Shown piece by piece: positions 1 through 20,774 of a stretch of DNA of 64,000 nt; position 1 is the first letter of the stretch; each line of letters starts with the position of its first letter. The notes under the pieces were generated by a model. That model had not been told where the DNA came from, searched no databases, and saw only the letters and a list, made by a program, of their open reading frames with translations. The DNA is from a virus (Duplodnaviria; Caudoviricetes). The stretch is taken from the IMG/VR virus record IMGVR_UViG_3300020036_004254, one strand, 5' to 3'. A program made the translations under genes and the position numbers.

Positions 1-59
1 ATCACAATGCAAGCCGTCGTCAAAAGTCTGTACGAAACCTTCCGAAAAGAGACAACCCC

Positions 60-266
60 GTGAAAGTTACCTCCGTCACCAAAATCCGCGAAATCGTCCT
101 CACCCTCTCCATTGAGGAAGCCCAGAATCTCATCGACTTTAGTGATATCGTTGGCGACTCCTTGCTAAATCCCCATAATGTCTACGCAACAAAAGCAGAC
201 AATGGACGATTCGCCCTGTACGAACTGCGTCGATTCCTCGGGTCCGCCATCCACAAAAATGCGTAA
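60..266 (+). CDS. hypothetical protein
   Basis: 68 aa ORF; GTGA overlap with an upstream partial ORF; overlaps next ORF. Confidence 0.6.
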   Translation: MKVTSVTKIREIVLTLSIEEAQNLIDFSDIVGDSLLNPHNVYATKADNGRFALYELRRFLGSAIHKNA

Positions 267-474
267 CCTCTCACTCTTCCTGTTCTCCTATTACGACCAC
301 TGGGCCTACGGCGGTTTCGAAATGAAAGAAATCGCCGTCGTCGCCAATACCGAATCGGAAGCCCTCGGAATGATTCTGGACAAATACCCAGAAACCACCC
401 CCACCAAATGGTGTCATAACAGTGTCGATATGACACGGCCCAACATCATCGAACTGTCCGAACGCTCCTCTTGA
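259..474 (+). CDS. hypothetical protein
   Basis: ATG at 259 (MRNLSLFLF...) overlapping the upstream stop. Confidence 0.6.
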   Translation: MRNLSLFLFSYYDHWAYGGFEMKEIAVVANTESEALGMILDKYPETTPTKWCHNSVDMTRPNIIELSERSS

Positions 475-499
475 CAAACACTGGGGTATAGGTTAGTAT
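471..499 (+). promoter_or_regulatory. sigma70-type promoter TTGACA-N17-TAGTAT
   Basis: consensus -35, 17 bp spacer, near-consensus -10; fires into non-coding DnaA-box region. Confidence 0.75.
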
Positions 500-592
500 T
501 CATCCGAGAGCCGTGTTCCACCCCGTCAGCCGTCATCCGTATCCCCACACACGAAGCCGTTCGGTTTGTACTGGAAGCCTACAACCGGAACG

Positions 593-671
593 TGTGGAGA
601 AATAATCCCACGTGGAAACAGATAGAGTTATCCACACCAGATGTGGATAAGTCGCCGTAAAATGTGGATAA
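593..671. promoter_or_regulatory. DnaA box cluster
   Basis: TTATCCACA at 628-636, TGTGGATAA at 642-650 and 663-671 (perfect), TGTGGAGAA at 593-601 (1 mismatch). Confidence 0.75.
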
Positions 672-913
672 CCTCGGGAGAAAGTCATTGGTAACCATTC
701 GGTTACTTAACATTATCTTGAAGTATTCTCAGTGAACCATTTGGTTCAGTGTCCTAATAATGAGACACCAACTAAATCTCAAGGGGTTACGCTCCGAGAA
801 AGATTTTTTCACCGGGATTGTTCAATCATTTCGGTGTGGTGGACGTAGATTGGAACGTTGGTGAAAACATGTGGTTAAACGTTGGGTCAACCCCTTGAGA
901 GGAGTGGAAAACG

Positions 914-1129
914 GTGAAATATTTTGCGATTCGGGCGTCCGAGACGGATTGGACGGTGCCTAATCAGTACGTGGCGAGCCGTGGTCGTCCGGTGCAGTGG
1001 ACGCGGGACGTAGACGATGCGGTGCAGTTTGGCACGGCGACAGCGGCCATGAATTTTGCGGGACTTCGTGGGATTTCTGCGGCGGTGTTGGTGGAGGTGT
1101 CTCACGAGGTGGTGGTTCGGGAAATCTAG
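914..1129 (+). CDS. hypothetical protein
   Basis: 71 aa ORF, GAGGAG RBS upstream of GTG. Confidence 0.7.
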   Translation: MKYFAIRASETDWTVPNQYVASRGRPVQWTRDVDDAVQFGTATAAMNFAGLRGISAAVLVEVSHEVVVREI

Positions 1130-1171
1130 GGGAAACCCTGACTTGCGTGGAAGCGAGCAAGCGAGTACTTT
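1128..1171 (+). promoter_or_regulatory. box-class promoter (GGGAAACCCTGAC + TTGCGT-N17-TACTTT), leaderless
   Basis: member of repeated promoter family; ATG 7 nt after -10. Confidence 0.75.
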
Positions 1172-1178
1172 TCGTCCC

Positions 1179-1559
1179 ATGAGACAGCCTATCTGCCCCG
1201 CCCGAGACTTTGGCACGTGTTCCTTCAGCAACAGCACGGGTCCGTCCTTGTGTGTGTTTTGTGGGACGGCCCATCCTTTCCCCCCGGAGAATTCTGTGGA
1301 AAACGAGTTGGTCAAGCCCAACATCAATCTGAACGGTTCTGACGGGATGGAGTTGGCTCGTCAGTACTACGAGGCGGCACAGGCGGTTGAGAACGCCGCA
1401 AATCTCATGGGGCGACTCGTCCACGGTCGGGACTATCAGGGGTCACCGGACGGTGCCTACGAGCGAGCCTACCAGCAGATGGTGGAGCGTCTCAAGCCCA
1501 TGATTTCTGCGTACAACGACCTGAAGGCGATTGCGGAACATTGTGTGGAGGAAGCCTGA
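1179..1559 (+). CDS. hypothetical protein (probably leaderless)
   Basis: MRQPICPARDFG...; start re-assigned to ATG 1179 after promoter. Confidence 0.65.
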   Translation: MRQPICPARDFGTCSFSNSTGPSLCVFCGTAHPFPPENSVENELVKPNINLNGSDGMELARQYYEAAQAVENAANLMGRLVHGRDYQGSPDGAYERAYQQMVERLKPMISAYNDLKAIAEHCVEEA

Positions 1560-1562
1560 TTC

Positions 1563-1605
1563 AGGGAAACCCTGACTAGCGCGGGGTTATCCCGTGAGAT
1601 ATTGT
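1563..1605 (+). promoter_or_regulatory. box-class promoter (AGGGAAACCCTGAC + TAGCGC-N17-TATTGT)
   Basis: repeat family, 17 bp spacer. Confidence 0.75.
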
Positions 1606-1636
1606 TAGTTCACACCTTTCAGACAGGAGTTGTGTT

Positions 1637-1813
1637 ATGGACGAGGTAATGTTCAATGCCAAGGAGCGAATGACGCAGGAGCTTCTGGTGGCCAACACGG
1701 GTCATTTGCTGGCCTTGGGGTGGTCGGAGAGTGCGGTGGTGCGCCATTGTGAGGCGGTGGCGACCGAGTACTTCGAGCGGTTGGAGAAGCGGGTGAGGGA
1801 GCGGGTCAAGTAG
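1637..1813 (+). CDS. small hypothetical protein (58 aa, MDEVMFNAKERM...)
   Basis: AGGAG RBS, own promoter; below ORF-track cutoff. Confidence 0.7.
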   Translation: MDEVMFNAKERMTQELLVANTGHLLALGWSESAVVRHCEAVATEYFERLEKRVRERVK

Positions 1814-1987
1814 TGTCTGTGCAGAGTTGAAGCCACTGAGTAATGCTAGAGCGGCGCGTTTCCATCTTTGAGTGGAAGGAAAGGGTTTGTCGCGTACTTT
1901 AGAACCCACAGACATTACCTGTTTTCTCTTGGGGGAAAGGAATACTGGCCATTTGAATCGGAGCAAAGTCCTTTCCCCCGGAGAATC

Positions 1988-2030
1988 GGGGAATCCCTGA
2001 CTAGCGCGAACGTTGGACTGGTTGTAGCTT
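1988..2030 (+). promoter_or_regulatory. box-class promoter (GGGAATCCCTGAC + TAGCGC-N17-TAGCTT)
   Basis: repeat family. Confidence 0.75.
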
Positions 2031-2069
2031 CAATCGTGTAGGGAAACACTAACCCAAACGGAGTGACCG

Positions 2070-2225
2070 ATGAGCAAGACGGCGAAGACCAAGGGCGAGA
2101 AGGCCAAGTGGATGCGTATCTCGACGGCGCGGGATTTCAAGACCTCGCACACGGCGGGGATGGTGTTCAAGGCGTCCGACCGGGACTACGTGGTGACCGC
2201 TGACGGTTCGTGGCGGCGTAAGTAA
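2070..2225 (+). CDS. small basic protein (51 aa, MSKTAKTKGEKAKW...)
   Basis: GGAG RBS, own promoter, GC3-rich codons. Confidence 0.7.
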   Translation: MSKTAKTKGEKAKWMRISTARDFKTSHTAGMVFKASDRDYVVTADGSWRRK

Positions 2226-2359
2226 GCGTTCTCTTGGGGTGACTGACGTGGATACACCCTGTGGCACATAGCCTGACGCGGTCACCCCTTGAGATTTGAC
2301 CAGACCTGAAAACCCCGATTTGTTTATGATGGGTGAGTAGCCGCTGGTCAAATCTTTTC

Positions 2360-2402
2360 AGGGAATCCCTGACTTGCCGGTTGGTGGGTCAGGGGTTACC
2401 TT
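2360..2402 (+). promoter_or_regulatory. box-class promoter (AGGGAATCCCTGAC + TTGCCG-N17-TACCTT)
   Basis: repeat family. Confidence 0.75.
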
Positions 2403-2432
2403 TCTGGTGTACACTCCACCGAGAGCATACCG

Positions 2433-2588
2433 ATGCCCAAGTTTATTCTTTGGTCCAACAACGACCCGAACAACGCCTTCGAGGTTGAGGCAGACAACCC
2501 CAACAATGCCGCCTTTGCCGCTCTGAGCGAACTTGGCTGGTCCATGAGTGACGGCGACGAGGACGAGGACGAGGACGAGGAGGATTAG
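2433..2588 (+). CDS. small acidic protein (51 aa, C-terminal DEDEDEDEED)
   Basis: own promoter; (GACGAG)n coding tract. Confidence 0.7.
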   Translation: MPKFILWSNNDPNNAFEVEADNPNNAAFAALSELGWSMSDGDEDEDEDEED

Positions 2589-2593
2589 AGAAT

Positions 2594-2637
2594 AGGGATT
2601 TCCCCGACTTGCTTTCGGGTGGGACGGGGAGTATCCT
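2594..2637 (+). promoter_or_regulatory. box-class promoter (AGGGATTTCCCCGAC + TTGCTT-N17-TATCCT) driving the tRNA
   Basis: repeat family; 10 nt upstream of tRNA. Confidence 0.75.
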
Positions 2638-2647
2638 TGTGTCAGAC

Positions 2648-2720
2648 GCCTCGGTAGCTCAGTTGGTAGAGCAAGGGACTTTTAATCCCAAGGTCGTGGG
2701 TTCGAGCCCCACCCGAGGCA
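2648..2720 (+). tRNA. tRNA-Lys (anticodon UUU), CCA not encoded
   Basis: acceptor GCCTCGG/CCGAGGC+A, D arm GCTC/GAGC, anticodon loop CTTTTAA, T arm GTGGG-TTCGAGC-CCCAC. Confidence 0.93.
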
Positions 2721-2741
2721 CTTCCTTTTGCGGAGAATACA

Positions 2742-2867
2742 ATGCTCAAGCTCATCTTCAACAGTCTGCTCTTGTTTCTGTTCGTGACCGTGGTGCTGGT
2801 GGTGGTGTTCTGGCTGTGCAAACATCTTCTGATTCTCTACGTGGTGTGGATGTGGGTGATGATGTAA
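2742..2867 (+). CDS. small hydrophobic membrane peptide (41 aa)
   Basis: GGAG RBS; MLKLIFNSLLLFLFVTVVLVVVFW... Confidence 0.6.
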   Translation: MLKLIFNSLLLFLFVTVVLVVVFWLCKHLLILYVVWMWVMM

Positions 2868-3034
2868 TGTTCATCGACGTTGACGACGAGCCTGTGTACA
2901 CGGTTCGGACCTCGGAGTCCAAGATTTTTGTGCAGGGGGATTCCAACCCCATGAGACGCCACGAGGCTGAGGCCACCCGAGACATGCTGAAGTGGATGGA
3001 CCCGGAATGTGTGGTGGAGATTGTTATCCTGTGA
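2867..3034 (+). CDS. hypothetical protein
   Basis: TAATG coupling to upstream ORF. Confidence 0.6.
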   Translation: MFIDVDDEPVYTVRTSESKIFVQGDSNPMRRHEAEATRDMLKWMDPECVVEIVIL

Positions 3035-3279
3035 GTGCCGCCACCCGAGCCAAGTCAGCCCGAGAACGGGCAAATATTGCCGCACGGTTTATCCGTCGCG
3101 GGTCCAAGGGCAGTCGAGCGTTTGCCGACTGTTTCGAAATGGGTGACGGAGACGAGGTGGCCAAGATTCTGGTACAGAAAGCACAGACGGACAAGCGTTT
3201 GGCGAACTTCTGTGTGTACCATTCTTTCGGGACACCGGAGCAGGTTCAGGCGTTGTGTGAGGGCTTGACAAACCCGTGA
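3031..3279 (+). CDS. hypothetical protein
   Basis: GTGA coupling to upstream ORF. Confidence 0.6.
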   Translation: MSAATRAKSARERANIAARFIRRGSKGSRAFADCFEMGDGDEVAKILVQKAQTDKRLANFCVYHSFGTPEQVQALCEGLTNP

Positions 3280-3293
3280 GAGGGTGTTATCAT
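3265..3293 (+). promoter_or_regulatory. sigma70-type promoter TTGACA-N17-TATCAT
   Basis: near-consensus. Confidence 0.8.
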
Positions 3294-3299
3294 TAGTTC

Positions 3300-3575
3300 A
3301 CACCGGGACAACGGGTATCTCACGACCCGCCCCTGTCAGGCAATAGCATAAACGGTAATGCGCCCCGTGAGAGGGGAGATTGGGGTTCGAATCCCCGGCT
3401 TGTCTTTGGTACTATCCCCAAGGGTTCGAAAAATATCGAGTTCCCGACTGGCCGAAGCGTTCTCTTGGGGTAGTCCCATTCTTTTCTCAGTACACGGGAA
3501 AGGCCCGGAAAAAATCCCGCGTCGGTACGGTTGCAACCGTGCTAATCATGTGCTATCCGTGGGTTGTCGCACATG
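3300..3575 (+). ncRNA. putative structured RNA including a tRNA-like element (3337-3406)
   Basis: D arm GCAT/ATGC, T arm GGGG-TTCGAAT-CCCC, aberrant anticodon arm CCCC-GTGAGA-GGGG, followed by several hairpins. Confidence 0.5.
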
Positions 3576-3833
3576 GGCGTGAAATCGGCTGACTACCACG
3601 TGTTCTTTTCTCCGGAGGTTCCAATGGGTGGTCGCATCGAAGGTGCAGGCATGAATCTCAAGGGGGTTCCCACGGTGACGGTGGTGTTCGGTCAGTGGAA
3701 TACCGTCCATCCTGTCCACGTGGTGGGTATTTTCAACACGGAAGAGAAAGCGGTGGCTCTGGTGAAAGAGGAAGAGGCTCGCACGGAGCATCGACGACTC
3801 CGGGTCTGGCACGAGACGTTCTTCGTGCAGTAA
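3564..3833 (+). CDS. hypothetical protein (start uncertain)
   Basis: ORF with coding-like C-terminal half (VVGIFNTEEKA). Confidence 0.5.
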   Translation: MSHMGVKSADYHVFFSPEVPMGGRIEGAGMNLKGVPTVTVVFGQWNTVHPVHVVGIFNTEEKAVALVKEEEARTEHRRLRVWHETFFVQ

Positions 3834-3900
3834 AGTTTGTCAAGGCCCCGCCAACGGAGTTGGCAGTAGAGCAGATGGATTGGGGTTGAAAGTCTGACCC

Positions 3901-3929
3901 TTGACAAACCCACTCGCCCCGAGTATCTT
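3901..3929 (+). promoter_or_regulatory. sigma70-type promoter TTGACA-N17-TATCTT
   Basis: near-consensus, upstream of ORF 3959. Confidence 0.8.
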
Positions 3930-3958
3930 CAGTCATCACTTCAACCACAGGAATCCTC

Positions 3959-4348
3959 ATGAAAAACGCCAAGACGGAAAAGGTCAAGAATACCCTCACC
4001 TACTATCTTGAGGACGGTACGGTTGCCGTGGTCCCGGCAAGCTGGCCCAAGGCCAAGTACATCATCAAGAATGCGTCTGGAATCTCGTTCTTCGAGGAGA
4101 ATCCGGGGTCGGATTCCCCGAATCTCCACGAAGTGGACCGCAAGGAGTTCAACGAGTTCATGGTGAACGACTTTCGTTATCGTGTGAACGGGGACAAGGT
4201 CGAGGGCAAGTATTTCCATGGTTGGGAAACGTGCGGTCTGTACGGCTCGGACGGGACCGTGTCGGAGGTCATCCGGACGATGACGGCACACAAGAGGTGG
4301 GACGAGTTGGCCAAACTGATTGCGTGTGTTCGGAATCCCACGAAGTAA
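3959..4348 (+). CDS. hypothetical protein
   Basis: 129 aa, AGGA RBS, own promoter. Confidence 0.8.
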   Translation: MKNAKTEKVKNTLTYYLEDGTVAVVPASWPKAKYIIKNASGISFFEENPGSDSPNLHEVDRKEFNEFMVNDFRYRVNGDKVEGKYFHGWETCGLYGSDGTVSEVIRTMTAHKRWDELAKLIACVRNPTK

Positions 4349-4419
4349 ACGGGTGGGTCAAGGGGTGGCCGGGAACGCTTCCCAGTAGTACAGGCAATGG
4401 CGAAAGTCTGTACCACCCC

Positions 4420-4448
4420 TTGACACACGCGGACTAACCACTTAACAT
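4420..4448 (+). promoter_or_regulatory. sigma70-type promoter TTGACA-N17-TAACAT
   Basis: near-consensus. Confidence 0.75.
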
Positions 4449-4477
4449 TCTCGTATCACCCCCGAAAGAGGAATCCC

Positions 4478-4882
4478 ATGAACTATTCGACTGTGACAAC
4501 CACCAAGACCCCGACTGGTGGTCATCTTTTCCACCTGACCGACACGCTCGGAAACGAGCATCGGGTGTTCTTCGACGCCGGAATCAACGTTCCCGCGTTC
4601 GTGGTCGTTCGCACCAACGGCATGTCCTTCCTGAACGCCCCTCCGGAAAAACCGTTCAAGAACGAAAACGTCTTCCGGTTGGAGACGAAGGTGTACAAGA
4701 CGTTCAAGTGGGGAGGGGTCGCCTACCGTGTTCGTGACGGCAAGGTGGAGTACCGTATCCGTGGCGACGAGTGGGCGACCACTGGTGCCGCAGAAGACGG
4801 TGATGTGTACAAACTCATCGCACATCTGGTCAACCACGGTGAGTACATGATTCTGCGCGACTTGCTCAACGCGATGGAGTAG
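4478..4882 (+). CDS. hypothetical protein
   Basis: 134 aa, GAGG RBS; possible weak similarity to ORF 3959 (YRVNGDKVE vs YRVRDGKVE). Confidence 0.8.
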   Translation: MNYSTVTTTKTPTGGHLFHLTDTLGNEHRVFFDAGINVPAFVVVRTNGMSFLNAPPEKPFKNENVFRLETKVYKTFKWGGVAYRVRDGKVEYRIRGDEWATTGAAEDGDVYKLIAHLVNHGEYMILRDLLNAME

Positions 4883-4924
4883 GGGTTTCCCCGACTTGCG
4901 GAAGACCTCTCACGAGGTTACGTT
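4881..4924 (+). promoter_or_regulatory. box-class promoter (GGGGTTTCCCCGAC + TTGCGG-N17-TACGTT)
   Basis: repeat family. Confidence 0.75.
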
Positions 4925-4955
4925 TCTCTTCACACCACTCACCCGGAGCAACACC

Positions 4956-5180
4956 ATGCTGACCTGCACCCATCAGGGACACTCCTCCCAGTCCACCCAA
5001 CTCAAGGTTCAGGAGACAGACCGCGACAAGACGATGTTGGCGTTCTATCCCGACAACGCCGGAATGCACACCATCTGGCTCAACGCCGAGAGCGTGTTGG
5101 TCTTGGCCCGGAAGCTGGAAGCGTGGGCAATCAAGCGCGGGGCCAACCTCCCAAAATCTTCTGTGGAAGGAAGCCTGTAA
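4956..5180 (+). CDS. hypothetical protein
   Basis: GGAG RBS before ATG 4956. Confidence 0.7.
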   Translation: MLTCTHQGHSSQSTQLKVQETDRDKTMLAFYPDNAGMHTIWLNAESVLVLARKLEAWAIKRGANLPKSSVEGSL

Positions 5181-5324
5181 AGGCTCACCGTTCAGGAGAA
5201 CTCTAATGCGTCGATAACCGTTGAATCTCAAGGGGTTGAGGAACGTTCGCCCCTTGAGATTCGCAGGACGTAAACGCAAACGTCGAATCAAACGTTGCAC
5301 CAAACGTTGCACCTCGGAGGATTG

Positions 5325-5471
5325 ATGTCTACGCTGTGGCGGTTGCTGATGGTTTCCCTGTTCTACTTCCTCGTGGTGTTCTTCCCGGTTGACCCGTGGC
5401 AGAGGTTGGTGTCGGCGTCCGCTGGGATGATTTTGCTCAACGAACTGTTCGAACCGCGCAAGAAGAGGTGA
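5325..5471 (+). CDS. small membrane protein (48 aa)
   Basis: GGAGG RBS; hydrophobic segments. Confidence 0.6.
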   Translation: MSTLWRLLMVSLFYFLVVFFPVDPWQRLVSASAGMILLNELFEPRKKR

Positions 5472-5666
5472 AAACGGTGGCGTGTTCGTTGGAGTAAACG
5501 GAAACGTGTTCAACGGAGTAAACGTCATCAATCTTTTGGGGCAAAGATATTGGATAAGATTTTTTGCAGAGCATTGGACAGTTGTCTTTTGCCCCAAGAG
5601 AATGCCCCTTGACAGACTCGTTTCAAGGGGTTATCTTTTGTGCATACCCTCTGGAGATTCCAAGCG

Positions 5667-5840
5667 ATGAAGGACACCAAAGAGTACTGGAAAGAAAAGG
5701 CCGTTTATCTTGCGGCAATGGTGGCCTTGGTTCCTGTGCAAGATAGAATCTTGCCCGACGTTGAGGCTGGCGAGCTTGATTTTGCCACTGATATCTTGGC
5801 GCAATATCCGCCCCTTGACAAACCCCGGAAGCAAGGTTAA
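5667..5840 (+). CDS. hypothetical protein
   Basis: promoter TTGACA-N17-TATCTT at 5609-5637, GGAG RBS. Confidence 0.65.
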   Translation: MKDTKEYWKEKAVYLAAMVALVPVQDRILPDVEAGELDFATDILAQYPPLDKPRKQG

Positions 5841-5869
5841 CGTTCGGGTAACCCCAAGAGGACGGCACA

Positions 5870-6073
5870 ATGCGCGGAAAAACCACGTTGTTCGTTGACC
5901 AGTACGGAAGCAAGGTCTACGCCAAGACTGTCAAGGAACTGGTCACCGTCGCCGGGGGCGGCAAGGTTTCCAAGATGTATCAGGACGGAATGGGCGGGTT
6001 GAGCTATCACGTGGGCTACGTGGTGGGAAAGCGTTGGTTCACGGCATTCGTTCCTTTCTCCGCAAAGGTCTAG
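5870..6073 (+). CDS. hypothetical protein
   Basis: promoter TTGACA-N17-TAACGT at 5815-5843, GAGG RBS. Confidence 0.75.
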   Translation: MRGKTTLFVDQYGSKVYAKTVKELVTVAGGGKVSKMYQDGMGGLSYHVGYVVGKRWFTAFVPFSAKV

Positions 6074-6081
6074 AGGACACT

Positions 6082-6261
6082 ATGGCCAAGAAAGTTGCCA
6101 CTGAAGGAATGCACCACTCCCGTGCGTGGCGTCTCGGCTGGGAAGATGCCGCAAACGGAATGCCCCGTGGCCACTCGGAGAACGGGTTCCGCACCGTGCG
6201 CGGTGATTCCTATTCAGAAATGATGTACGACGACGGGTACAACGTCGGGTCGTGTCGGTAA
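6082..6261 (+). CDS. small hypothetical protein (AWRLGWEDA / YDDGY motifs)
   Basis: GAGG RBS. Confidence 0.65.
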   Translation: MAKKVATEGMHHSRAWRLGWEDAANGMPRGHSENGFRTVRGDSYSEMMYDDGYNVGSCR

Positions 6262-6303
6262 GGGTTTCCCCGACTTGCGGAAATGATTAGTTCCCGCTAG
6301 TAT
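6261..6303 (+). promoter_or_regulatory. box-class promoter (AGGGTTTCCCCGAC + TTGCGG-N17-TAGTAT), leaderless
   Basis: repeat family; ATG 7 nt after -10. Confidence 0.75.
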
Positions 6304-6310
6304 TCATCCC

Positions 6311-7027
6311 ATGAAGACTCCCAGCGGCGTCATCCTCTACACGGGTCCGTCCCAATTGACGGGCAAGCCCATCGTTGTGATTGCCACTGGACTGAACAAG
6401 TCCAGCCGCAATGCCAAGACGGGCGGCATGGTCCAAACCTACATTCTTTGCGCCGATGTCAATCCCATTGAGGCTCTCAACGGGGCGGATACGGCGATTT
6501 TCGGGGGTTGCATTCACCGCAAGAATCCTGTCACGGGGGTTCGCACCTGTTACGTTCGGATTGACACGGGTCCGAACGGCGTGTACAAGGCTTGGAAGCG
6601 CGGCGTTTATCCTGTGCTGACGGATTGGGCCGTCTTCACGGGCAAGGCCATCCGGTTTGGCACCTACGGTGACCCTGCCGCCGTCCCGCTTCACGTGTGG
6701 CAAAATCTTGCCGCCTACGCTGGGACGACGACGGGCTATACGCACCAATGGCGAGCCAAGAAGTTTGCGGGGTTGGCATCGTTCTGCCAAGCCTCTGCCG
6801 AGACTGCCGATGATGTCATTCGCGCAAACGCCAAGGGGTTTGGCACCTTCCGGGTTCTACCCGTGATGGAATCTGTTCCCGCAAATGCCATGCACTGCCC
6901 CGCATCGGCGGAAATGGGTAAGGTTACTACGTGCATCGAATGCGGGGCGTGTGACGGATTCAGCAAGCGCAACGTGGCTATCTTTGCACACGGCGCAACC
7001 GGACACAAGTACACGGGCGCACGTTAA
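6311..7027 (+). CDS. conserved phage Cys-rich protein (gp88/DUF7227-like, possibly Fe-S binding)
   Basis: motifs NAKTG, CxHR...CYV, RFGTYGDPAAVP, GYTHQW, CPA...CxxCxxC, AHG. Confidence 0.7.
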   Translation: MKTPSGVILYTGPSQLTGKPIVVIATGLNKSSRNAKTGGMVQTYILCADVNPIEALNGADTAIFGGCIHRKNPVTGVRTCYVRIDTGPNGVYKAWKRGVYPVLTDWAVFTGKAIRFGTYGDPAAVPLHVWQNLAAYAGTTTGYTHQWRAKKFAGLASFCQASAETADDVIRANAKGFGTFRVLPVMESVPANAMHCPASAEMGKVTTCIECGACDGFSKRNVAIFAHGATGHKYTGAR

Positions 7028-7069
7028 GGGAATCTCTGACTTGCGCTAACCCTTTTCACGGGATACCTT
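7027..7069 (+). promoter_or_regulatory. box-class promoter (AGGGAATCTCTGAC + TTGCGC-N17-TACCTT), leaderless
   Basis: repeat family; ATG 6 nt after -10. Confidence 0.75.
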
Positions 7070-7075
7070 TCCCTC

Positions 7076-7258
7076 ATGAAAACTTTCTCCATCACGTTCA
7101 ACGGGCGACCCATTGGGTCGATTGGTATTTGCTCTGTCTTTACGGTGGAAGTCACCGCAAGAGACATTTGGGATGCCTGTTCCCGTCTGTACGAAACACA
7201 CGAACATATCCGGTTGGTGACACACAGTGAAGTACAGAATAAGGGAAACCCCGACTAG
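7076..7258 (+). CDS. hypothetical protein
   Basis: 60 aa ORF after promoter. Confidence 0.7.
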   Translation: MKTFSITFNGRPIGSIGICSVFTVEVTARDIWDACSRLYETHEHIRLVTHSEVQNKGNPD

Positions 7259-7284
7259 CGTTCCGCTTTTCAGGGGTTTACCTT
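7242..7284 (+). promoter_or_regulatory. box-class promoter (AGGGAAACCCCGAC + TAGCGT-N17-TACCTT)
   Basis: repeat family. Confidence 0.75.
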
Positions 7285-7313
7285 TCGTTCACACCCTCTA
7301 GGGAGAATCACCG

Positions 7314-7847
7314 ATGTCCAGCTTGCTCCAAAATCTTGCGGGGATGAAGGGCGCGAAGTTCGCCTCTTTCGTCTACACCGCCAAGCCGTCAGGCCCCCGG
7401 CTCACTGAGGAAAAGGCGCGGCACGTGCTTATCCTCGGTGCGTCCACCAAATCTTTGTACGAACGGGATTTGGAAGTGTTGGCGGAAATCGCGCCGACGC
7501 TCAAGGGGCTGGAAGCCGACGCCGCAGAAATCATCGCGGAATCCCGGCGCGTGTCGCTCGCCGTCGGCATCGGCCACAATCCGGCGTACACCGGGGAAGA
7601 TGCCTACAGCGCAACCAACATCCCCGGCGTCAAGGTCCACAACGTCACGGGAGAAATCCACGTAAACGGATTGGTCGTGCGGAAGGATGTCATCACGGAA
7701 GCGACCTACCGCAAGGTCAACAGCAAGCCTGAGACGCTGGCACGTAAGGCCGTGGAGAACATGCTCCCGTCGTCCAAGTTCCGCCAGTTCAAGCTGTCCG
7801 GTATCACCGTCGCCAAGCTCAACGGCGAGACAATCGAAATGGAATAA
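7314..7847 (+). CDS. hypothetical protein
   Basis: 177 aa, GGAG RBS, strong codon bias. Confidence 0.85.
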   Translation: MSSLLQNLAGMKGAKFASFVYTAKPSGPRLTEEKARHVLILGASTKSLYERDLEVLAEIAPTLKGLEADAAEIIAESRRVSLAVGIGHNPAYTGEDAYSATNIPGVKVHNVTGEIHVNGLVVRKDVITEATYRKVNSKPETLARKAVENMLPSSKFRQFKLSGITVAKLNGETIEME

Positions 7848-8187
7848 GTCTCAGGGGGTTGTGGACTCGCCCCTTGAGCGTCTTTTTTGTTCAAAACGTA
7901 AACCCAAACGTTGCGCCAAACGCAAAGCGAAACGTTGCCACTCGGTATTTTTGCGCTATGTGCAACTCCTCTGACACTCGCACGGCATCCCCGGAAGCGC
8001 AAGGGTTGTCGTTCCCCCTTGAGCAAACAGAATCCGCCGAACGGCGAGCAACCAAGCGTCGGCGTCTACGGCTCATGCTCTTGCACCTTGGCCACTGGAT
8101 TCTTTCCAGTGCAGTAACCAACATGAGCGAAGCTCAACTAGACGCGATGCTCTTGCTCGTCCACAGTGCAGACCCGAACAAGCTGTA

Positions 8188-8260
8188 GGCTGGCACGGAA
8201 CTTGCAGGCGCACGGGCTGGCACGGAACTTGCAGGCGCACGGGCTGGCACGGTTTTTGCT
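8188..8260 (+). repeat. 27 bp tandem repeat, each unit containing a sigma54 -24/-12 consensus
   Basis: GGCTGGCACGGAACTTGCAGGCGCACG x2 plus GGCTGGCACGGTTTTTGCT; TGGCAC at 8191, 8218, 8245. Confidence 0.85.
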
Positions 8261-8441
8261 TCCCGTGCGTTCATCCCGACGACGGAAAAAAGTTCGGGTT
8301 CCCACTTGCGGAAATGGAATCGCCCCCTTACCCTTCCTGAAGGGCCGAAATGCCCGGCAGGGTTTTTTGACAATCGGGGGAAAAATGTTCGCCCCGAATG
8401 GGCGCGAACCATGTTCCCCCACTTTTCAGGGAGCTACAAAG

Positions 8442-9506
8442 ATGGCGCACGAACTGGAACAGAATGAAGAGGGAACGTCGTTTTTCCAAGTGGTGCGGGA
8501 AGGTGTCGCGCTTGCGTGGCACAATCTCGGCAAGTATTTCACTGCCGACGAACGGCCCAACACAACGGCGGAAGCTCTGAAGCTCTGCCGTGGTGACTTC
8601 GAAGTCGAAGTCAGGCCCCAGACTTACACCGCCTACACTTCCGACGGTGACACATACCAACGGGAAAGCACGCTGTCGGCGGCTATCGTCCGGACGGACA
8701 ACAACGTCGAAGTGGGGAGCGCGACACCGGGATATACGGTGATGCAATTCAGTGAGGCGATGCGGAACCTTGACCCGTTCATCGGGGAAGGGTTGGCGAC
8801 AATCGAGACGGCTGGCGTCTTCCGCAACGGTGACAAGGCTTTCATGCTCATGCGGTGGAATATCGAACGCTTTGGCGACCTTTGCCGGGAAGCGTTCGGG
8901 GACAGCATGCGAGCCTACGGGCTGGCCACGGCATCCCACTCTGGCCGGGACGGTATCTGTTTCTACGATACCGATGTCACCGTGGTGTGCCAGAATACGG
9001 AACGGGCCGCCGTCAATGGGTCCACCTCCAAGTTCATGGCGAAGCACTCGCGCAAGGCTGGGACGCGAGTCGTGGACGGTGTGACCAAGCTTTGGGGCGG
9101 AGTGGTCGCACAGCGTGAGGAAATCGGACGGGCAATCCTTGCCCTCCGTTCCCTGACGTTGGACGAAGCGACCTTCCGGGCAATGGTGCTGGACGTTATC
9201 GCACCACTGCCGCAAGAGTCGAAGAGCTTCGACCCGAGCGCGAAGTTCGCCAACACGATGGTCCGACGGGCAGAGGAAAAGAGGCTTACGCTGTCAAGCC
9301 TCTGGCACAACGCACCGGGACACGTTGGTGACGGGTCGGCTTGGGAAGCGTACAAAGCGGTGACGCATGCCGCCGACCATAGCGGTGTCCTTTGGTCGCC
9401 CCGGTCGCTGGAATCACGGGCCGAGGGACTGCTAGAGGGTCCGATGGTCACCGCCAAGAATGCGGTCTATAACGGACTGCTGGAACTGGCCACGGCAGGG
9501 AAGTAA
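8442..9506 (+). CDS. DUF932/DUF945 family (phage/plasmid-like TIGR03299) protein
   Basis: MAHELE, AWHNLG, VRTD, ETAG, SHSG, VVCQNT, KHS, GSAWEAYKAVT motifs; RBS GGAG before ATG 8442. Confidence 0.85.
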   Translation: MAHELEQNEEGTSFFQVVREGVALAWHNLGKYFTADERPNTTAEALKLCRGDFEVEVRPQTYTAYTSDGDTYQRESTLSAAIVRTDNNVEVGSATPGYTVMQFSEAMRNLDPFIGEGLATIETAGVFRNGDKAFMLMRWNIERFGDLCREAFGDSMRAYGLATASHSGRDGICFYDTDVTVVCQNTERAAVNGSTSKFMAKHSRKAGTRVVDGVTKLWGGVVAQREEIGRAILALRSLTLDEATFRAMVLDVIAPLPQESKSFDPSAKFANTMVRRAEEKRLTLSSLWHNAPGHVGDGSAWEAYKAVTHAADHSGVLWSPRSLESRAEGLLEGPMVTAKNAVYNGLLELATAGK

Positions 9507-9511
9507 GGGAC

Positions 9512-9546
9512 AGCGGGGCAAGGCTTGGACAGCTTGCCCCGCTTTC
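9512..9546 (+). terminator. stem-loop terminator
   Basis: AGCGGGGCAAG/CTTGCCCCGCT inverted repeat right after stop. Confidence 0.6.
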
Positions 9547-10058
9547 CTGCCTCTGGAACATAACTAGTTAGTTATGCGTGACTATTCGTTTAAAGGCGAT
9601 TTAAGGGCCTATCGCCGTTTAGGGCTATAGGGGTAGCCTAAACCCAAACGTGCATACGCTAAGTATATGTGTTTCAACAGGTTACACGCTTTGTGATAGT
9701 GCCTCTGCATACGGATTATGCAGGCTCTAATGCCCGTATAACGCAAGATTTGGCCGAATGTGTGCCTTAATGTTTTATTCGGGAATCGTTCGGTCTATAG
9801 AGTGATAGCACTTTCAGGGAAACCCTTATTGACTTTGGGGCGCGAGTGGTGTACCCGCTCAGAGAAAAGGGCTATATGACTTTATAGGAATATTCGGAAT
9901 ACCCGACCGACATGGGGGCATGGCATATGAAACGAGGTTACGATTTTCAAAAAATATTTCCCAGAATTTTTTTCCCGGGAAACCCAAATCATAAGACGCG
10001 GTGGAATACCCTTGTGTTCAGGAAGTGAATACCCTTGTGTTTGCTGATTGGCAAACAC

Positions 10059-10499
10059 TCACCACTCAAAGGAAAACTGTTCTCCGTTGATGATATCACG
10101 CCAGTGTTCAGGAAGTTGACAGTTGTGTGGAGCGTGGGTGAAGAGGGGAGCGATTTGGAAGTCGTTGTATCCGGCACGACCGCACCCGATGCGAGTGACG
10201 GCGAAGGTGAGGTTTGGGTATTGGTTGGCGTAGTCGAGGAAGGTGGAGACGTAGTTGACGACTGTTTTGAACGGGAGCGTGTTGATGTTTTCGTCTTTGG
10301 TGGGGATGGCGTAGGCTCGTCCTTGGGGACCATGTCCGACTCCACGGACGGCTCCATAGAGGTCAAGGGCGTCTTTAGCGGCACCCGCACCGTGTCGTCC
10401 TGCGAGGTTGGAGCCAAAGACGAAGATAGCGTTGGGGTGTTTCATGAGGGATTCCACGCGGAGTGTTTCGGCGTGGTCGTTGACGGTGAAGCGTTTCAT
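10059..10499 (-). CDS. macro-domain-like phage protein (A1S_2505-type)
   Basis: IFVFGSNLAGRHGAGAA...AYAIPTK...VTRIGCGRAG motifs. Confidence 0.8.
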   Translation of the reverse strand: MKRFTVNDHAETLRVESLMKHPNAIFVFGSNLAGRHGAGAAKDALDLYGAVRGVGHGPQGRAYAIPTKDENINTLPFKTVVNYVSTFLDYANQYPNLTFAVTRIGCGRAGYNDFQIAPLFTHAPHNCQLPEHWRDIINGEQFSFEW

Positions 10500-10669
10500 G
10501 GTTGGATATTGTGTTTTTTCGCCCATTCAATGAGGATGGATTTGAAAGTTTTTCTGTCGATGTATTTTTCTGTATAATCTCCATTGGGTCTAAGCCACGG
10601 GAGGGTGTCTGTCCATTTTTCGTTATGGAGTTCATCAATGAGTATGTTGAGGAGTTCAGTGTCGGTCAT
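10496..10669 (-). CDS. small hypothetical protein (57 aa, MTDTELLNIL...)
   Basis: ATGA coupling at both ends. Confidence 0.65.
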   Translation of the reverse strand: MTDTELLNILIDELHNEKWTDTLPWLRPNGDYTEKYIDRKTFKSILIEWAKKHNIQP

Positions 10670-11001
10670 GGTTGGGCCTCGGGGGTTGACGCTGTCAAAA
10701 TCTGACTGTCAAGTTTTGTGACACACGAGGTCAGCACTTTATTGACGGCATCACAGAGGACGCAGTCGTAGCGTTTGTGGGTGCGGCATCTGCCATAGGT
10801 GGTGAATTCTCGTAGTGTGTTTTTGAGGGTTTGTTGTGCGTTTGTGATGGCGTGATTATAGACCAAGTCACGAAACGTTTCCAGTTCTTGGATGCACCCA
10901 GCACAGGCGAAGTACTCGCCGTCGGGTTCTCCTTTCTCGGGGTAGTCACATCCAAAGCGTTGGGCCAGTGCGAACATCATGTCTCGTTCGGGGGTGGTCA
11001 T
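10666..11001 (-). CDS. hypothetical protein with CxxC motifs
   Basis: 111 aa ORF in coupled operon. Confidence 0.65.
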   Translation of the reverse strand: MTTPERDMMFALAQRFGCDYPEKGEPDGEYFACAGCIQELETFRDLVYNHAITNAQQTLKNTLREFTTYGRCRTHKRYDCVLCDAVNKVLTSCVTKLDSQILTASTPEAQP

Positions 11002-11205
11002 AAATGAATTTCTCTGTTGAGGTGTCCGCGATTAGCCATTAGGATACCTCGGTCCACGCACAGCGGACAGACCGATGATGAATACCATGACGATGAAAAT
11101 GTATGAGAACATTACGGTTGGGCCTCATCGATATTGGAGGTGGTGTGTCCACAGGGGCAGACAAAGAGCCATTCGTAGTCTGGCGGGGTATTGGGGAAGG
11201 TCATT

Positions 11206-11691
11206 TCATGGTGATGAATGTGGGGTGTGTTCCAGAACTTCCACCACGGGTGTTTCGGTGTGGGGAGTGGAGGGTGGACAAAGGGCCATTTCAGTTGTAG
11301 ATTTCTCTGATGGGACAGGGTCAGGTTGTGTAGGGTTGTTTTCATTGCGCCAGTGTTCCCATGAGGGGTGGGTGGCTTTATGGTAAAGCCACGAGGGGTG
11401 TTCGGGTTTGGGGGTGAAGGGCGGGGTCACGATGGGATTTTGACAGCGTTGGCAGAGGGGGACGTAGAGGGTTTCTTCTGGTCCATATTCATTGGTGACG
11501 AGGGCATAGGAGAGGTGTGTTTCACAGAAGTAGAGTCCACAGCCGTATTCCCCGCCAAGTGGGTCACCGCCGCAGACGTATCCAAGTCCTCGGTCGATGG
11601 TGCGTTTACATTTGGGGTGGTCGCAGAAGGCGGGGACGCCGTATCCTACGTCACGTTTCCACTTGTGGTCGTATCCTATAGACCAGCCCAT
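11206..11691 (-). CDS. conserved phage Cys/His-rich protein
   Basis: MGWSIGYD...GYGVPAFCDHPKC...CGLYFC; RBS GGAGG. Confidence 0.7.
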   Translation of the reverse strand: MGWSIGYDHKWKRDVGYGVPAFCDHPKCKRTIDRGLGYVCGGDPLGGEYGCGLYFCETHLSYALVTNEYGPEETLYVPLCQRCQNPIVTPPFTPKPEHPSWLYHKATHPSWEHWRNENNPTQPDPVPSEKSTTEMALCPPSTPHTETPVVEVLEHTPHSSP

Positions 11692-11969
11692 GGAGCCTCC
11701 TGAGGGATTGCCCATTCATCTTGGTATCCAGCGGCTCGAATCAGATTTCGAATCAGGGCATGAATAGTTCTGGCTTCATCTTTTCCGTACATGTTGTACA
11801 GGTGGGCTTCGGTTAAAAACGGTGCCGTTTCGTCTCCGGGTTCGAACATGGGATATTGTTTGGAATGGCCGTTGACTTTGGAGTGTGCCTTAAGATTCAC
11901 ATCGGGCACGTGGGTCATTAGGCGTCTGACGGCGTCTTCGAACGCGGGGCGGTCAAATGATGGAGTCAT
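11676..11969 (-). CDS. hypothetical protein
   Basis: 97 aa, ATGA-coupled. Confidence 0.7.
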   Translation of the reverse strand: MTPSFDRPAFEDAVRRLMTHVPDVNLKAHSKVNGHSKQYPMFEPGDETAPFLTEAHLYNMYGKDEARTIHALIRNLIRAAGYQDEWAIPQEAPWAGL

Positions 11970-12442
11970 GGAATGGGGAAGGGTTTGAGGTCGTGGGGTT
12001 GGTCGTCAATGAGAGTGTGGGGTTTTGCTATCTTGGCGCGAAGAGCATCTGCAAGCGCGTACACACCAGATTCAATACCATCGGCGTGGTGTGGAGAACG
12101 GATGGCACATGCATCCGTAATGACCTTGCGAAGGAACTCCTCTGACAGACTTTGGCGAGCGGAGCATCGCTTGCAAGTGACCCGCCGCTTGTGGCCAATG
12201 AATGACTCGCCACAGTGAATGCAGTTGTTGACGTAGTTCCCGTTCTCGTGCGAGAAGTCCTCGGGCCAGTCACACTCCCGCGCTTCGCGCTCGGGGTCGG
12301 GTTGTTCAGGACCACCCCACCGTTGCCACGGGAGCGGACAGGACCGACCTGTTGCGTGTGGTTCATTGTCGCGGTTCTGTGGGCAGAGTGAGTGAACGCA
12401 GTCACCGTCCTGCCCTGCCGCGCAGAGGGTAAGCGTGGTCAT
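11966..12442 (-). CDS. hypothetical protein with zinc-ribbon (EDFSHENGNY...CxxC...CxxC)
   Basis: ATGA-coupled start at 12442. Confidence 0.7.
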   Translation of the reverse strand: MTTLTLCAAGQDGDCVHSLCPQNRDNEPHATGRSCPLPWQRWGGPEQPDPEREARECDWPEDFSHENGNYVNNCIHCGESFIGHKRRVTCKRCSARQSLSEEFLRKVITDACAIRSPHHADGIESGVYALADALRAKIAKPHTLIDDQPHDLKPFPIP

Positions 12443-12846
12443 GGGTTTTCTCTGGTAAGTTTCATTTTGACACCAACGTAGGCATCGGTGAGGATGTCGT
12501 ATTGGTCTGAGAGGGTGGCAACTTCTTTTTTGAGTCTGGCTATTTCCTCTACGGCGTTGACCACATTCTGAGCAGAGACAAACACACTCAGACCACAAGG
12601 CGGATTGTGGTGATAGCGTGTGGCGACCTCTTCGAGCGAGACTTCGGTGTACGAAGGAATCTTATGAATCGCATCAAATTCTTCTTGGTTTACCGCTCTG
12701 AAACGGACGACATATCTTCCCGAAAGAATATGTTTATTGGCCTCGTAATGGGACAAGGTATATTGAAAGGGGTGTGGTGTTTCGTAATTGTAGAAAATAC
12801 CCCACATTTCAAGGGGTTTCAGCGGGTATAGAAAATCGTTAGTCAT
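12439..12846 (-). CDS. hypothetical protein
   Basis: 135 aa, coupled. Confidence 0.7.
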   Translation of the reverse strand: MTNDFLYPLKPLEMWGIFYNYETPHPFQYTLSHYEANKHILSGRYVVRFRAVNQEEFDAIHKIPSYTEVSLEEVATRYHHNPPCGLSVFVSAQNVVNAVEEIARLKKEVATLSDQYDILTDAYVGVKMKLTRENP

Positions 12847-13219
12847 TGGTGTCTCCTGAGGGTACGTGAAAGAATCCCATTTGACCCCGGTAGGGGGTGA
12901 GTGGGAGTGCGGTGGGGTTTTTCAGAACAAAGCCGTACTTTCCGGTGAACCACGGGCTGTCCGACCGTTCAACACAGTCCGCGATGTCCACGGTTCCGAC
13001 CAACCCGCCCATGGGAAAGGCGTCTGGGTCGGGAAGTGGGATGTTGGGATGGGTGTGCATGACGGTGACGTACCCCATGTGGTCAAACGATTTTCCGGCG
13101 TGGACAAAGAACGTCCCTCGGTGGTTGGTGCGCCACGAGCGATTTTCAATATCTTTGTAGCCGTTGACGATGAGCCACGCCCACGGCTGTCGAATGGTCA
13201 GGGCATTCATTCCATACAC
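12839..13219 (-). CDS. ASCH domain protein
   Basis: ALTIRQPWAWLIVNGYKDIENRSW...HAGK...GGLVGTV...RGQMGFF. Confidence 0.9.
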   Translation of the reverse strand: MYGMNALTIRQPWAWLIVNGYKDIENRSWRTNHRGTFFVHAGKSFDHMGYVTVMHTHPNIPLPDPDAFPMGGLVGTVDIADCVERSDSPWFTGKYGFVLKNPTALPLTPYRGQMGFFHVPSGDTND

Positions 13220-13575
13220 TCGGCAATTTGGTCGGTGATAGTGGTGTAGAAATCGCGCACGGCTTCGTTGAATTCGTTTTTGGTGATGAATTCCATATTA
13301 TCGGATATATTACAACGAGCGTTCGTGTCTAGTTCAATGACGTTGTGTGGGGTGTGTTGAATGGTCCACCCCCGGAGATTGTTCATGGTGTCAATGTGGG
13401 TGATAATTCCGTACATCCACCAACGGTCTGACCCACCGTAACTATTCCGGAACCGAAAACATTTCCCAACGTGTCGCGCTCTCTCAGCCGCTTTTGACGC
13501 TTCTGTATATTCCTTCTCGCGCTTGAGAATATCGTGGGCTTTTTCAACCTGTTGTTTGGTTGGGCGGTTATTCAT
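13207..13575 (-). CDS. hypothetical protein
   Basis: ORF in coupled operon. Confidence 0.7.
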   Translation of the reverse strand: MNNRPTKQQVEKAHDILKREKEYTEASKAAERARHVGKCFRFRNSYGGSDRWWMYGIITHIDTMNNLRGWTIQHTPHNVIELDTNARCNISDNMEFITKNEFNEAVRDFYTTITDQIAECME

Positions 13576-17693: not shown

Positions 17694-18287
17694 ATGAAAT
17701 CGCCATACACATATTATCTTTATCATATACCAACACAGAAAAAATATTATGGTGTTCAATATGGTCCGAAATCAAATCCGGATAATCTTTGGACTACATA
17801 TTTTAGTAGTTCCAAAAAAGTTCACGAACTAATAGAACAATATGGGAAAGATAGCTTTTTCTTTGAGATTAGAAAACTATTCAAAACACCAGAAGAAGCT
17901 TTTTCTTGGGAACAACGTGTGTTGCAAAAACTTAAAGTTGTAGGAAAGGATGAGTGGTTAAACCAAGCATTGGCTCGCGGACCATACCTTTCATGGGGAA
18001 AACGGTCTAGAAAAACAAGATTGAAAATATCCTTAGCTTTGACCGGGAAAAAGCGTGGTTGTATATCTGAAGAAACAAGACTAAAGATGAGCATAGCCGC
18101 CAAAAAGCGTGGATATAACAGAACAGATTACAAGCCAACCGAAGAAACAAAGAAAAAAATGAGTCTTTCACAAAAAGGAAAGACTAATGTGGGAAAAATT
18201 CAAACACCTGAACACCGAAAGAAAAACAGTGAAGCTGTTTCCGCGTGGTGGAAAAAACGAAAGGAGAATTCTCTTGCCCTGTTATGA
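17694..18287 (+). CDS. GIY-YIG-type homing endonuclease with NUMOD3 repeats
   Basis: YTY...YYG...YFSSS...E.RVL...WLN; ETRLKMS/ETKKKMS repeats. Confidence 0.88.
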   Translation: MKSPYTYYLYHIPTQKKYYGVQYGPKSNPDNLWTTYFSSSKKVHELIEQYGKDSFFFEIRKLFKTPEEAFSWEQRVLQKLKVVGKDEWLNQALARGPYLSWGKRSRKTRLKISLALTGKKRGCISEETRLKMSIAAKKRGYNRTDYKPTEETKKKMSLSQKGKTNVGKIQTPEHRKKNSEAVSAWWKKRKENSLALL

Positions 18288-20383: not shown

Positions 20384-20399
20384 GTTGGATGATAGTAAA

Positions 20400-20665: not shown

Positions 20666-20666
20666 C

Positions 20667-20700
20667 CTTCTCGGCATATCTTCGGGTGTGCCGAGAAGTT
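20667..20700 (+). terminator. strong hairpin after tmRNA
   Basis: CTTCTCGGCATATC-TTCG-GGTGTGCCGAGAAG. Confidence 0.65.
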
Positions 20701-20774
20701 CTCGTTTGGGGGGTTGACAAGCCATGGCAGACCGACTACATTTCTTACATGAACCCCTTACCAAAGGAGTGACA

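What the first reader, a model, noticed from the sequence alone, without database searches (positions are those of the whole stretch)
471..912. DnaA-box cluster with palindromes at an apparent strand-composition switch
A 440 bp non-coding gap holds three perfect DnaA boxes (628 forward, 642 and 663 reverse) and near matches (593, about 870). It also has two related palindromes (GTAACCATTCGGTTAC at about 692, TGAACCATTTGGTTCA at about 733), an AT-rich stretch and a strong promoter (471-499) firing into it. The + strand looks C/A-rich to the left and G/T-rich to the right although genes on both sides are on +. T4-type replication does not need DnaA. Possible roles: a host-DnaA-assisted origin, a datA-like sink that titrates DnaA to stop host replication, or an injection-control signal like the DnaA-box-containing region of T5 first-step-transfer DNA.
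Basis: partly seen in the sequence, partly recalled or inferred. Interest (0 to 1): 0.72.

Follow-up and report, generated by a model that had tools for sequence, protein, structure and literature searches.

The report
Host DnaA-box cluster in T4-like phage
An uncultured T4-like phage carries three perfect binding sites for the host replication starter protein DnaA next to its most easily melted early-region DNA; this looks like a replication origin, but the strand-composition evidence for one does not hold up.

Summary
The three perfect DnaA boxes (628+, 642-, 663-) and two one-mismatch boxes (593, 870) are real and far beyond chance.

**For a selected, origin-like module**
- All five boxes are intact in a second, independently assembled strain (L163), although the sequence around box 1 has diverged.
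- Just downstream, 679-778 is the least stable duplex in the 14-kb GC-rich early region.
- L163 has an exact chromosomal-type parS 1.47 kb upstream of box 1.

- Part of the "non-coding gap" (500-657) is the 3' remnant of a small gene that is intact in L163.
- The 471-499 promoter is strain-specific. A non-homologous breakpoint lies at 499/500.
- The skew flip is real but local. Synonymous-site skew reverses again 3.5-4.4 kb to the right and is about zero in late genes on both strands, so it is not a replication-type inflection.
- No DnaA-trios, iterons, IHF site or GATC are present.
- The nearest relative (about 60% amino-acid identity, 127-kb contig) has no box cluster.

**Reading:** a lineage-specific host-DnaA docking module. 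Most likely it is an origin-like opening site (about 0.35). Rivals are control of early read-through transcription, a DnaA sink, and a recombination relic.

The overlapping window of this scan also noted this stretch (e1-5759016).

The parts
471..499 (+). Sigma-70-like promoter TTGACA-17-TAGTAT. It belongs to the left-hand cassette of this strain only.
   Evidence: 10 of 12 matches. Absent from L163, where the aligned stretch is coding and unrelated.
499..500 (.). Non-homologous breakpoint between this strain and L163.
   Evidence: L163 1755-3847 matches window 500-2581 at 98.8%. L163 1-1754 has no match to window 1-499.
500..657 (+). 3' remnant, with no start codon, of a small conserved gene. 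The gene is intact in L163 (1643-1960, 105 aa).
   Evidence: Homologs P0002 (81 aa) and P0003 (77 aa) end just before the position of box 1.
593..601 (-). One-mismatch DnaA box (TTCTCCACA).
   Evidence: Conserved in L163 at 1857.
628..636 (+). Perfect DnaA box 1.
   Evidence: Intact in L163 at 1894, although 3 substitutions and a 2-nt indel lie just upstream and 2 substitutions just downstream.
642..650 (-). Perfect DnaA box 2. With box 1 it forms a palindrome with 12-nt arms (625-636 / 642-653).
   Evidence: Intact in L163.
663..671 (-). Perfect DnaA box 3.
679..778 (.). Least stable duplex of the 14-kb early region (DUE-like). It contains both palindromes.
   Evidence: rank 1 in the first 14 kb and within the least stable 0.9% of all 100-bp windows in 64 kb. 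GC is about 0.39-0.40.
692..707 (.). Palindrome GTAACC-ATTC-GGTTAC.
   Evidence: In L163 the centre changes (ATTC to AATC) while the arms are kept.
730..751 (.). Palindrome CAGTGAACCA-TT-TGGTTCAGTG, which includes TGAACCATTTGGTTCA.
   Evidence: I7. Identical in L163.
777..900 (.). Perfect 12-nt inverted repeat TCTCAAGGGGTT / AACCCCTTGAGA, with the arms 100 nt apart. The right arm abuts the ribosome-binding site.
   Evidence: I2.
854..885 (+). Two copies of AACGTTGG, 24 bp apart start to start, bracketing the near-box at 870.
   Evidence: D8.
870..878 (-). One-mismatch DnaA box (TTAACCACA).
   Evidence: Conserved in L163 at 2136.
914..1129 (+). First gene to the right (71 aa, GTG start, GAGAGGAG ribosome-binding site at 898-905). 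It is extremely G3/T3-rich and has no promoter-like site of its own apart from one overlapping its start codon.

Best explanation
The element is a docking site for host DnaA that selection keeps intact. It has three consensus boxes and two weaker ones, and it sits directly beside the most easily melted DNA of the phage's GC-rich early region.

I commit to this reading: DnaA from the host binds the boxes soon after infection and helps open or mark the 679-778 stretch. The phage's own T4-type proteins (gp32 is in the window) could then assemble a first replication fork there, possibly helped by early transcripts that read through the region as in T4 R-loop origins.

Shown: the boxes, their conservation between two strains, the low duplex stability next to them, and the T4-type single-strand-binding gene. 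Inferred: DnaA binding, unwinding, and any use in replication.
For: - Box statistics.
- All three perfect and both near boxes are intact in L163, while 500-640 differs at 8 substitutions plus 2 indels (about 7%) against 0.3% in 641-2581.
- A 2-nt indel just before box 1 puts the boxes in different reading frames in the two strains. Homologs of the upstream gene end before the boxes. So coding constraint does not explain their conservation.
- 679-778 is the least stable duplex in 14 kb.
- The same three-box layout recurs in more than 120 bacterial genomes of many phyla and in 44 viral contigs. In the viral contigs the neighbouring genes include a DnaB-type helicase and primases, and none matched a Pfam family tied to dnaA or dnaN.
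- An exact parS (TGTTCCACGTGAAACA) lies 1.47 kb upstream in L163. A parS near a DnaA-box cluster occurred in 7 of 120 bacterial loci and 0 of 160 other viral loci.
- gp32 is encoded in the window.
Against: - There is no replication-type skew. Synonymous-site skew flips back within 3.5-4.4 kb and is about 0 in late genes on both strands.
- No DnaA-trios occur beside any box.
- No iterons or Rep gene were found. There is no IHF site and no GATC.
- The upstream promoter is not conserved.
- The closest relative (G001, 127 kb, 75% complete) has only one perfect box and none in the syntenic 21 kb, so related phages replicate without it.
- T4-type replication has no known need for DnaA (established knowledge).
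Confidence: 0.35

Rival explanations
1. DnaA-dependent control of early read-through transcription, acting as a sensor of host growth state. The first gene on the right (914-1129) has no promoter of its own and must be transcribed through the boxes. Bound DnaA would act as a roadblock or modulator and tie expression of the right-hand early genes to the host's DnaA level. This would resemble the way phi29 uses Spo0A boxes and alphaproteobacterial phages use CtrA sites.
For: - Between 500 and 913 the scan found only one promoter-like site, at 895-923, and it overlaps the start codon.
- The boxes lie in both orientations inside the transcribed leader.
- Precedents for host cell-cycle regulator sites in lytic phages: PMC2731898 for phi29. 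PMC9437464 for CtrA is known to me from its title and abstract only.
- DnaA-box roadblocks (E. coli asnC) are established knowledge recalled from memory.
- The leader 506-930 folds better than shuffles (z = -3.0).
Against: - The promoter scan covers only the sigma-70 consensus, so a missed promoter is possible.
- Nothing suggests why the 71-aa gene would need such control.
- The module is absent from relatives.
- This reading does not use the adjacent low-stability DNA.
Confidence: 0.25
2. A DnaA sink, like datA. Hundreds of replicating phage genomes, each with 3-5 good boxes, would soak up DnaA and stop new rounds of host chromosome initiation.
For: High-affinity consensus boxes are clustered and conserved. 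The parS nearby could similarly soak up ParB. The copy-number argument is inference.
Against: - There is no IHF consensus in the gap, which datA needs for its activity (the datA requirement is established knowledge).
- Three boxes per genome is a small sink.
- This reading does not explain the adjacent unwinding-prone DNA.
- Relatives lack the cluster.
Confidence: 0.15
3. A recombination linker or a relic. The cluster sits on a mosaic boundary and may persist as a short conserved patch where early-gene cassettes are swapped, or as a recently captured fragment with little function for the phage.
For: - The divergence step (7% to 0.3%) falls between box 1 and box 2, and a non-homologous junction lies 130 bp to the left.
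- The cluster is lineage-specific.
- Local codon-composition domains change here, as expected for modules with different histories.
Against: - There is no homology beyond the boxes to any of 120 bacterial or 160 viral loci that carry similar clusters.
- Three perfect 9-mers plus two near-boxes survive in a fast-changing patch.
- The genome strongly avoids palindromes, yet it keeps a 12-nt-arm palindrome here.
Confidence: 0.15
4. A T5-like injection-stop or membrane-tethering signal, or a structured non-coding RNA encoded in the gap.
For: T5-like phages have 8 DnaA boxes in the injection-stop region, and the role proposed for them is itself untested (bioRxiv 10.1101/866236, abstract). The RNA fold has z = -3.0.
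Against: - T4-type phages package by headful with permuted ends, so a fixed internal stop signal has no defined distance from the entering end (inference from T4 biology).
- There are only 3 perfect boxes.
- Rfam finds nothing in the gap.
- The fold score is inflated by the palindromes, and there are no covariation data.
Confidence: 0.1

Closest known systems
Bacterial chromosome origins (oriC), including the basal unwinding system of DnaA boxes plus DnaA-trios (PMC8287927)
   Same: Clustered consensus DnaA boxes, including an inverted pair, directly beside the locally least stable DNA. A chromosomal-type parS lies within 1.5 kb, as in some bacterial origin regions.
   Different: No DnaA-trios, no flanking dnaA or dnaN, no GATC or IHF sites, and no genome-scale skew inflection in the sequence I could reach. 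The element sits in a lytic T4-like phage.
T5-family injection-stop region with 8 DnaA boxes (bioRxiv 10.1101/866236)
   Same: A virulent phage with several DnaA boxes, palindromes and inverted repeats in an untranslated stretch among the earliest genes.
   Different: T5 has 8 boxes in a fixed pattern inside a terminal repeat of a genome with defined ends, conserved across 25 phages. Here there are 3 perfect and 2 near boxes, in one lineage only, in a phage type expected to have permuted ends.
T4 R-loop origins oriF and oriG (promoter plus downstream unwinding element; from my own knowledge)
   Same: A T4-type replication machinery, with transcription running into an AT-rich, easily unwound stretch.
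   Different: T4 origins have no DnaA boxes. The promoter here is not conserved between strains.
phi29 parS sites and Spo0A boxes (PMC2731898); CtrA sites in alphaproteobacterial phages (PMC9437464, title and abstract only)
   Same: A lytic phage genome carries binding sites for host chromosome-segregation and cell-cycle proteins.
   Different: The regulator here is DnaA. The host and any deferred-lysis behaviour are unknown.

Membership tests
Bacterial oriC-type origin (basal unwinding system) | One or two DnaA boxes with at most 2 mismatches to TTATCCACA | tested here: met
   Three perfect and two one-mismatch boxes.
Bacterial oriC-type origin (basal unwinding system) | At least 3 DnaA-trios (NAN repeats) within 0-16 bp of a box (definition in PMC8287927) | tested here: not met
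   The longest run is 2 for every box. The strand orientation used is my inference from E. coli R1. By eye, the opposite side of box 3 also has none within 16 bp.
Bacterial oriC-type origin (basal unwinding system) | AT-rich unwinding region adjacent to the boxes | tested here: met
   679-778 is the least stable 100-bp duplex in the first 14 kb.
Bacterial oriC-type origin (basal unwinding system) | Genome-scale strand-composition inflection at the site | tested here: inconclusive
   The flip is local only. Third-position skew reverses again by 4.4 kb and is about 0 in late genes.
T4-type R-loop origin | Promoter directly upstream of an unwinding element | tested here: inconclusive
   Present in the window but absent in strain L163.
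T4-type R-loop origin | Persistent RNA-DNA hybrid that primes leading-strand synthesis | not testable with these tools
   Needs an experiment.
Iteron/Rep origins assisted by DnaA (P1 oriR, pSC101 type) | Array of iterons and an adjacent Rep initiator gene | tested here: not met
   Only short two-copy repeats were found. Flanking small proteins have no Pfam match.
datA-type DnaA-inactivating locus | DnaA-box cluster together with an IHF binding site | tested here: not met
   The boxes are present, but no WATCAANNNNTTR lies between 1 and 24,000.
T5-type injection-stop region | Eight DnaA boxes in a conserved pattern within a terminal repeat (10.1101/866236) | tested here: not met
   There are five boxes at most and the closest relative has no cluster. 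The genome ends could not be examined.

The most novel reading that the evidence does not exclude
The phage carries a miniature copy of a bacterial chromosome-origin neighbourhood: chromosomal parS, a DnaA-box cluster and an unwinding element, all within about 1.6 kb. This would load the host's ParB and DnaA onto phage DNA. It could give a T4-like phage a DnaA-started origin and host-style positioning, or it could jam the host's own initiation and segregation.
Probability: 0.2. Interest if true: 0.8.

Novelty: new variant of a known kind. Interest (0 to 1): 0.5.

Why it matters
T4-type phages are the textbook case of replication that does not depend on the host initiator. A selected DnaA-box cluster beside unwinding-prone DNA, with a chromosomal parS nearby, would show that some of them plug into the host's origin machinery, whether to start replication, sense host state or disable the host cell cycle. 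A cloned 400-bp fragment and purified DnaA would be enough to test it. If the cluster is only a mosaic-junction relic, it is a caution against calling phage origins from DnaA boxes and a local skew.

Tried and rejected
- **Whole-genome skew.** The 32 kb upstream, and the 48.9-kb contig recorded for protein P0001, could not be read.
- **IMG/VR searches.** The box-pair and three-box patterns gave 117+ and 44 loci, none homologous to the window. Protein searches with the 71-aa gene and with an L163 left-flank gene found nothing.
- **GenBank phages.** Only tRNA matches.
- **Known RNA family in the gap.** None.
- **CtrA sites (TTAA-N7-TTAA), IHF sites and GATC clusters in the gap.** None.
- **Paralogy of the genes flanking the locus (914-1129 against L163 461-667).** BLASTP finds no alignment, so I dropped that argument.
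- **Three-box clusters in other large viral contigs as T4-like parallels.** Of 10 contigs (87-155 kb) tested, 9 lack a gp6-like baseplate gene and one has a weak generic match.

Full report
**What the window is.** It comes from an uncultured T4-like myovirus.
- It encodes gp5-, gp6-, gp7- and gp8-like baseplate proteins, plus gp32, dCMP deaminase, PhoH and a SegE-like endonuclease.
- The nearest GenBank phages (Pelagibacter phage HTVC008M, Melnitz, cyanophages) share only about 35% amino-acid identity in gp6.
- Notes from other windows of this scan place the window start about 32 kb into a genome of at least about 170 kb.

**The observation.**
- TTATCCACA occurs perfectly at 628 (+), 642 (-) and 663 (-). 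The whole window has 4 perfect boxes against 0.62 expected.
- One-mismatch boxes lie at 593 and 870.
- Boxes 1 and 2 form a palindrome with 12-nt arms.
- The two related palindromes at 692-707 and 733-748 are real. Their core AACCATTYGGTT is exact nowhere else in 64 kb.
- The window avoids palindromes to an extreme degree (no GATC, and 25 palindromic hexamers absent), so retained palindromes are notable.
- 679-778 is the least stable 100-bp duplex in the GC-rich first 14 kb and lies within the least stable 0.9% of the whole window.

**A second strain changes the anatomy.** Metagenome contig L163 (3,847 bp) is 98.8% identical to window 500-2581, but its first 1,754 bases are unrelated to window 1-499.
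- In L163 an ORF (1643-1960, 105 aa) runs through the homolog of window 500-660. The window keeps only its 3' part, with no start codon.
- Two distant homologs of that protein (77 and 81 aa) end just before the position of box 1.
- A 2-nt indel immediately before box 1 puts the boxes in different frames in the two strains. The boxes are therefore not held by protein coding.
- The 471-499 promoter lies wholly in the strain-specific left segment.
- Differences between the strains number 8 substitutions and 2 indels in 500-640, against 6 substitutions in 641-2581. The divergence step falls between boxes 1 and 2.
- All five boxes are nevertheless untouched. With two sequences this is suggestive of selection, not proof. 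By my own hand count over positions 619-643, the chance that 5 substitutions miss the 9 bases of box 1 is about 0.08.

**The strand switch.** GC skew is negative and AT skew mostly positive across the 1.75 kb left of the boxes in L163. GC skew is also negative across the 470 bases on the left in the window, even though those two sequences are unrelated. To the right, GC skew is strongly positive. All these genes are on the + strand.
- At third codon positions, all 7 left genes are C-rich (-0.16 to -0.61).
- On the right, G-richness (+0.62 in the first gene) lasts about 3.5 kb. Skew then turns negative at 4.4-8.2 kb and varies gene by gene.
- In the late genes, third-position and fourfold-site skew is close to 0 on both coding strands.

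A replication-driven asymmetry should persist for tens of kb, so the flip is best read as a boundary between local composition domains in a mosaic early region. Why two unrelated left flanks share the C-rich bias remains unexplained.

**Relatives.**
- The closest relative found is G001 (L119): a 126,841-bp contig, 75% complete, with about 60% amino-acid identity and conserved gene order.
- It has no box, even with one mismatch, near the syntenic position, and only one perfect box in the whole contig.
- L165 and L166 (about 62% relatives) also lack the cluster. The cluster is therefore lineage-specific.

**How common the layout is.**
- The inverted pair plus a third box occurs in 44 IMG/VR contigs and in more than 120 bacterial genomes of many phyla. 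None shares homology with the window beyond the boxes.
- Genes next to the viral clusters are phage-like, including a DnaB-type helicase, Prim-Pol and D5 primases, and DUF932. No host dnaA or dnaN appears.

**parS.** L163 carries an exact TGTTCCACGTGAAACA at 422-437, 1.47 kb upstream of box 1, against 0.01 expected.
- This agrees with first-reader notes about the unseen upstream part of this genome (e1-5759017).
- The 64-kb window itself has no parS.
- A parS-like site within the fetched locus occurred in 7 of 120 bacterial three-box loci and in 0 of 160 other viral loci. This combination looks like a bacterial origin neighbourhood rather than a typical phage feature.

**Tests against known kinds.**
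- The basal unwinding system of bacterial origins needs at least 3 NAN trios within 16 bp of a box (PMC8287927). No box here has more than 2.
- There are no iterons or Rep gene, and no IHF, CtrA or GATC sites in the gap.
- T5-like phages have 8 DnaA boxes in the injection-stop region of a terminal repeat (10.1101/866236). That arrangement is not matched here.
- phi29 shows that a lytic phage can carry parS and binding sites for a host master regulator (PMC2731898).

**Reading.** DnaA binding is very likely. What it achieves is open.

| Reading | Confidence |
|---|---|
| Origin-like opening site for the first replication fork | 0.35 |
| Control of read-through early transcription, or sensing of host state | 0.25 |
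| DnaA sink | 0.15 |
| Recombination linker or relic at a mosaic junction | 0.15 |
| T5-like injection signal, or a non-coding RNA | 0.10 |

The origin-like reading ranks first because the boxes abut the least stable DNA of the region. The transcription reading rests on the first right-hand gene lacking its own promoter.

The overlapping window of this scan also flagged the same stretch (e1-5759016).

Noticed in passing
window 1-64000 (also L163): GATC is completely absent (about 249 sites expected), and at least 25 of the 64 palindromic hexamers are absent although each is expected 12-17 times. CTAG and AGCT are also strongly depleted. This suggests a host with many restriction systems.
   Followed up: partly
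L163 422-437: Exact chromosomal-type parS TGTTCCACGTGAAACA, 24 bp upstream of a small gene and 1.47 kb upstream of the DnaA boxes. The 64-kb window has none.
   Followed up: partly
window 20361-20716: ARAGORN calls a permuted (two-piece) tmRNA with tag peptide ENNNYSTLLLSGALQAA inside the phage genome. I did not check it further.
   Followed up: no
window 3335-3405: tRNA-like gene with an abnormal anticodon loop. ARAGORN reports a 2-nt anticodon and the Rfam tRNA score is 29.1 bits, just at threshold. It lies downstream of a near-consensus promoter at 3265-3293.
   Followed up: no
window 24000-61000: The IHF consensus WATCAANNNNTTR occurs 13 times against 3.2 expected, all in the late region and none in the early region.
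   Followed up: no
window 777-788, 889-900; L119 5380-6520: A motif of the form CCCC-NN-GAGA / TCTC-NN-GGGG recurs in both orientations in the early regions of the window and of relative L119, often near gene starts. Its role is unknown.
   Followed up: no
window 1-13500 versus 14000-64000: The early region has about 55% GC against about 45% for the rest of the window. Relative L119 shows a similar but weaker step.
   Followed up: partly
window 17694-18287: SegE-like GIY-YIG homing endonuclease with a NUMOD3 motif.
   Followed up: no
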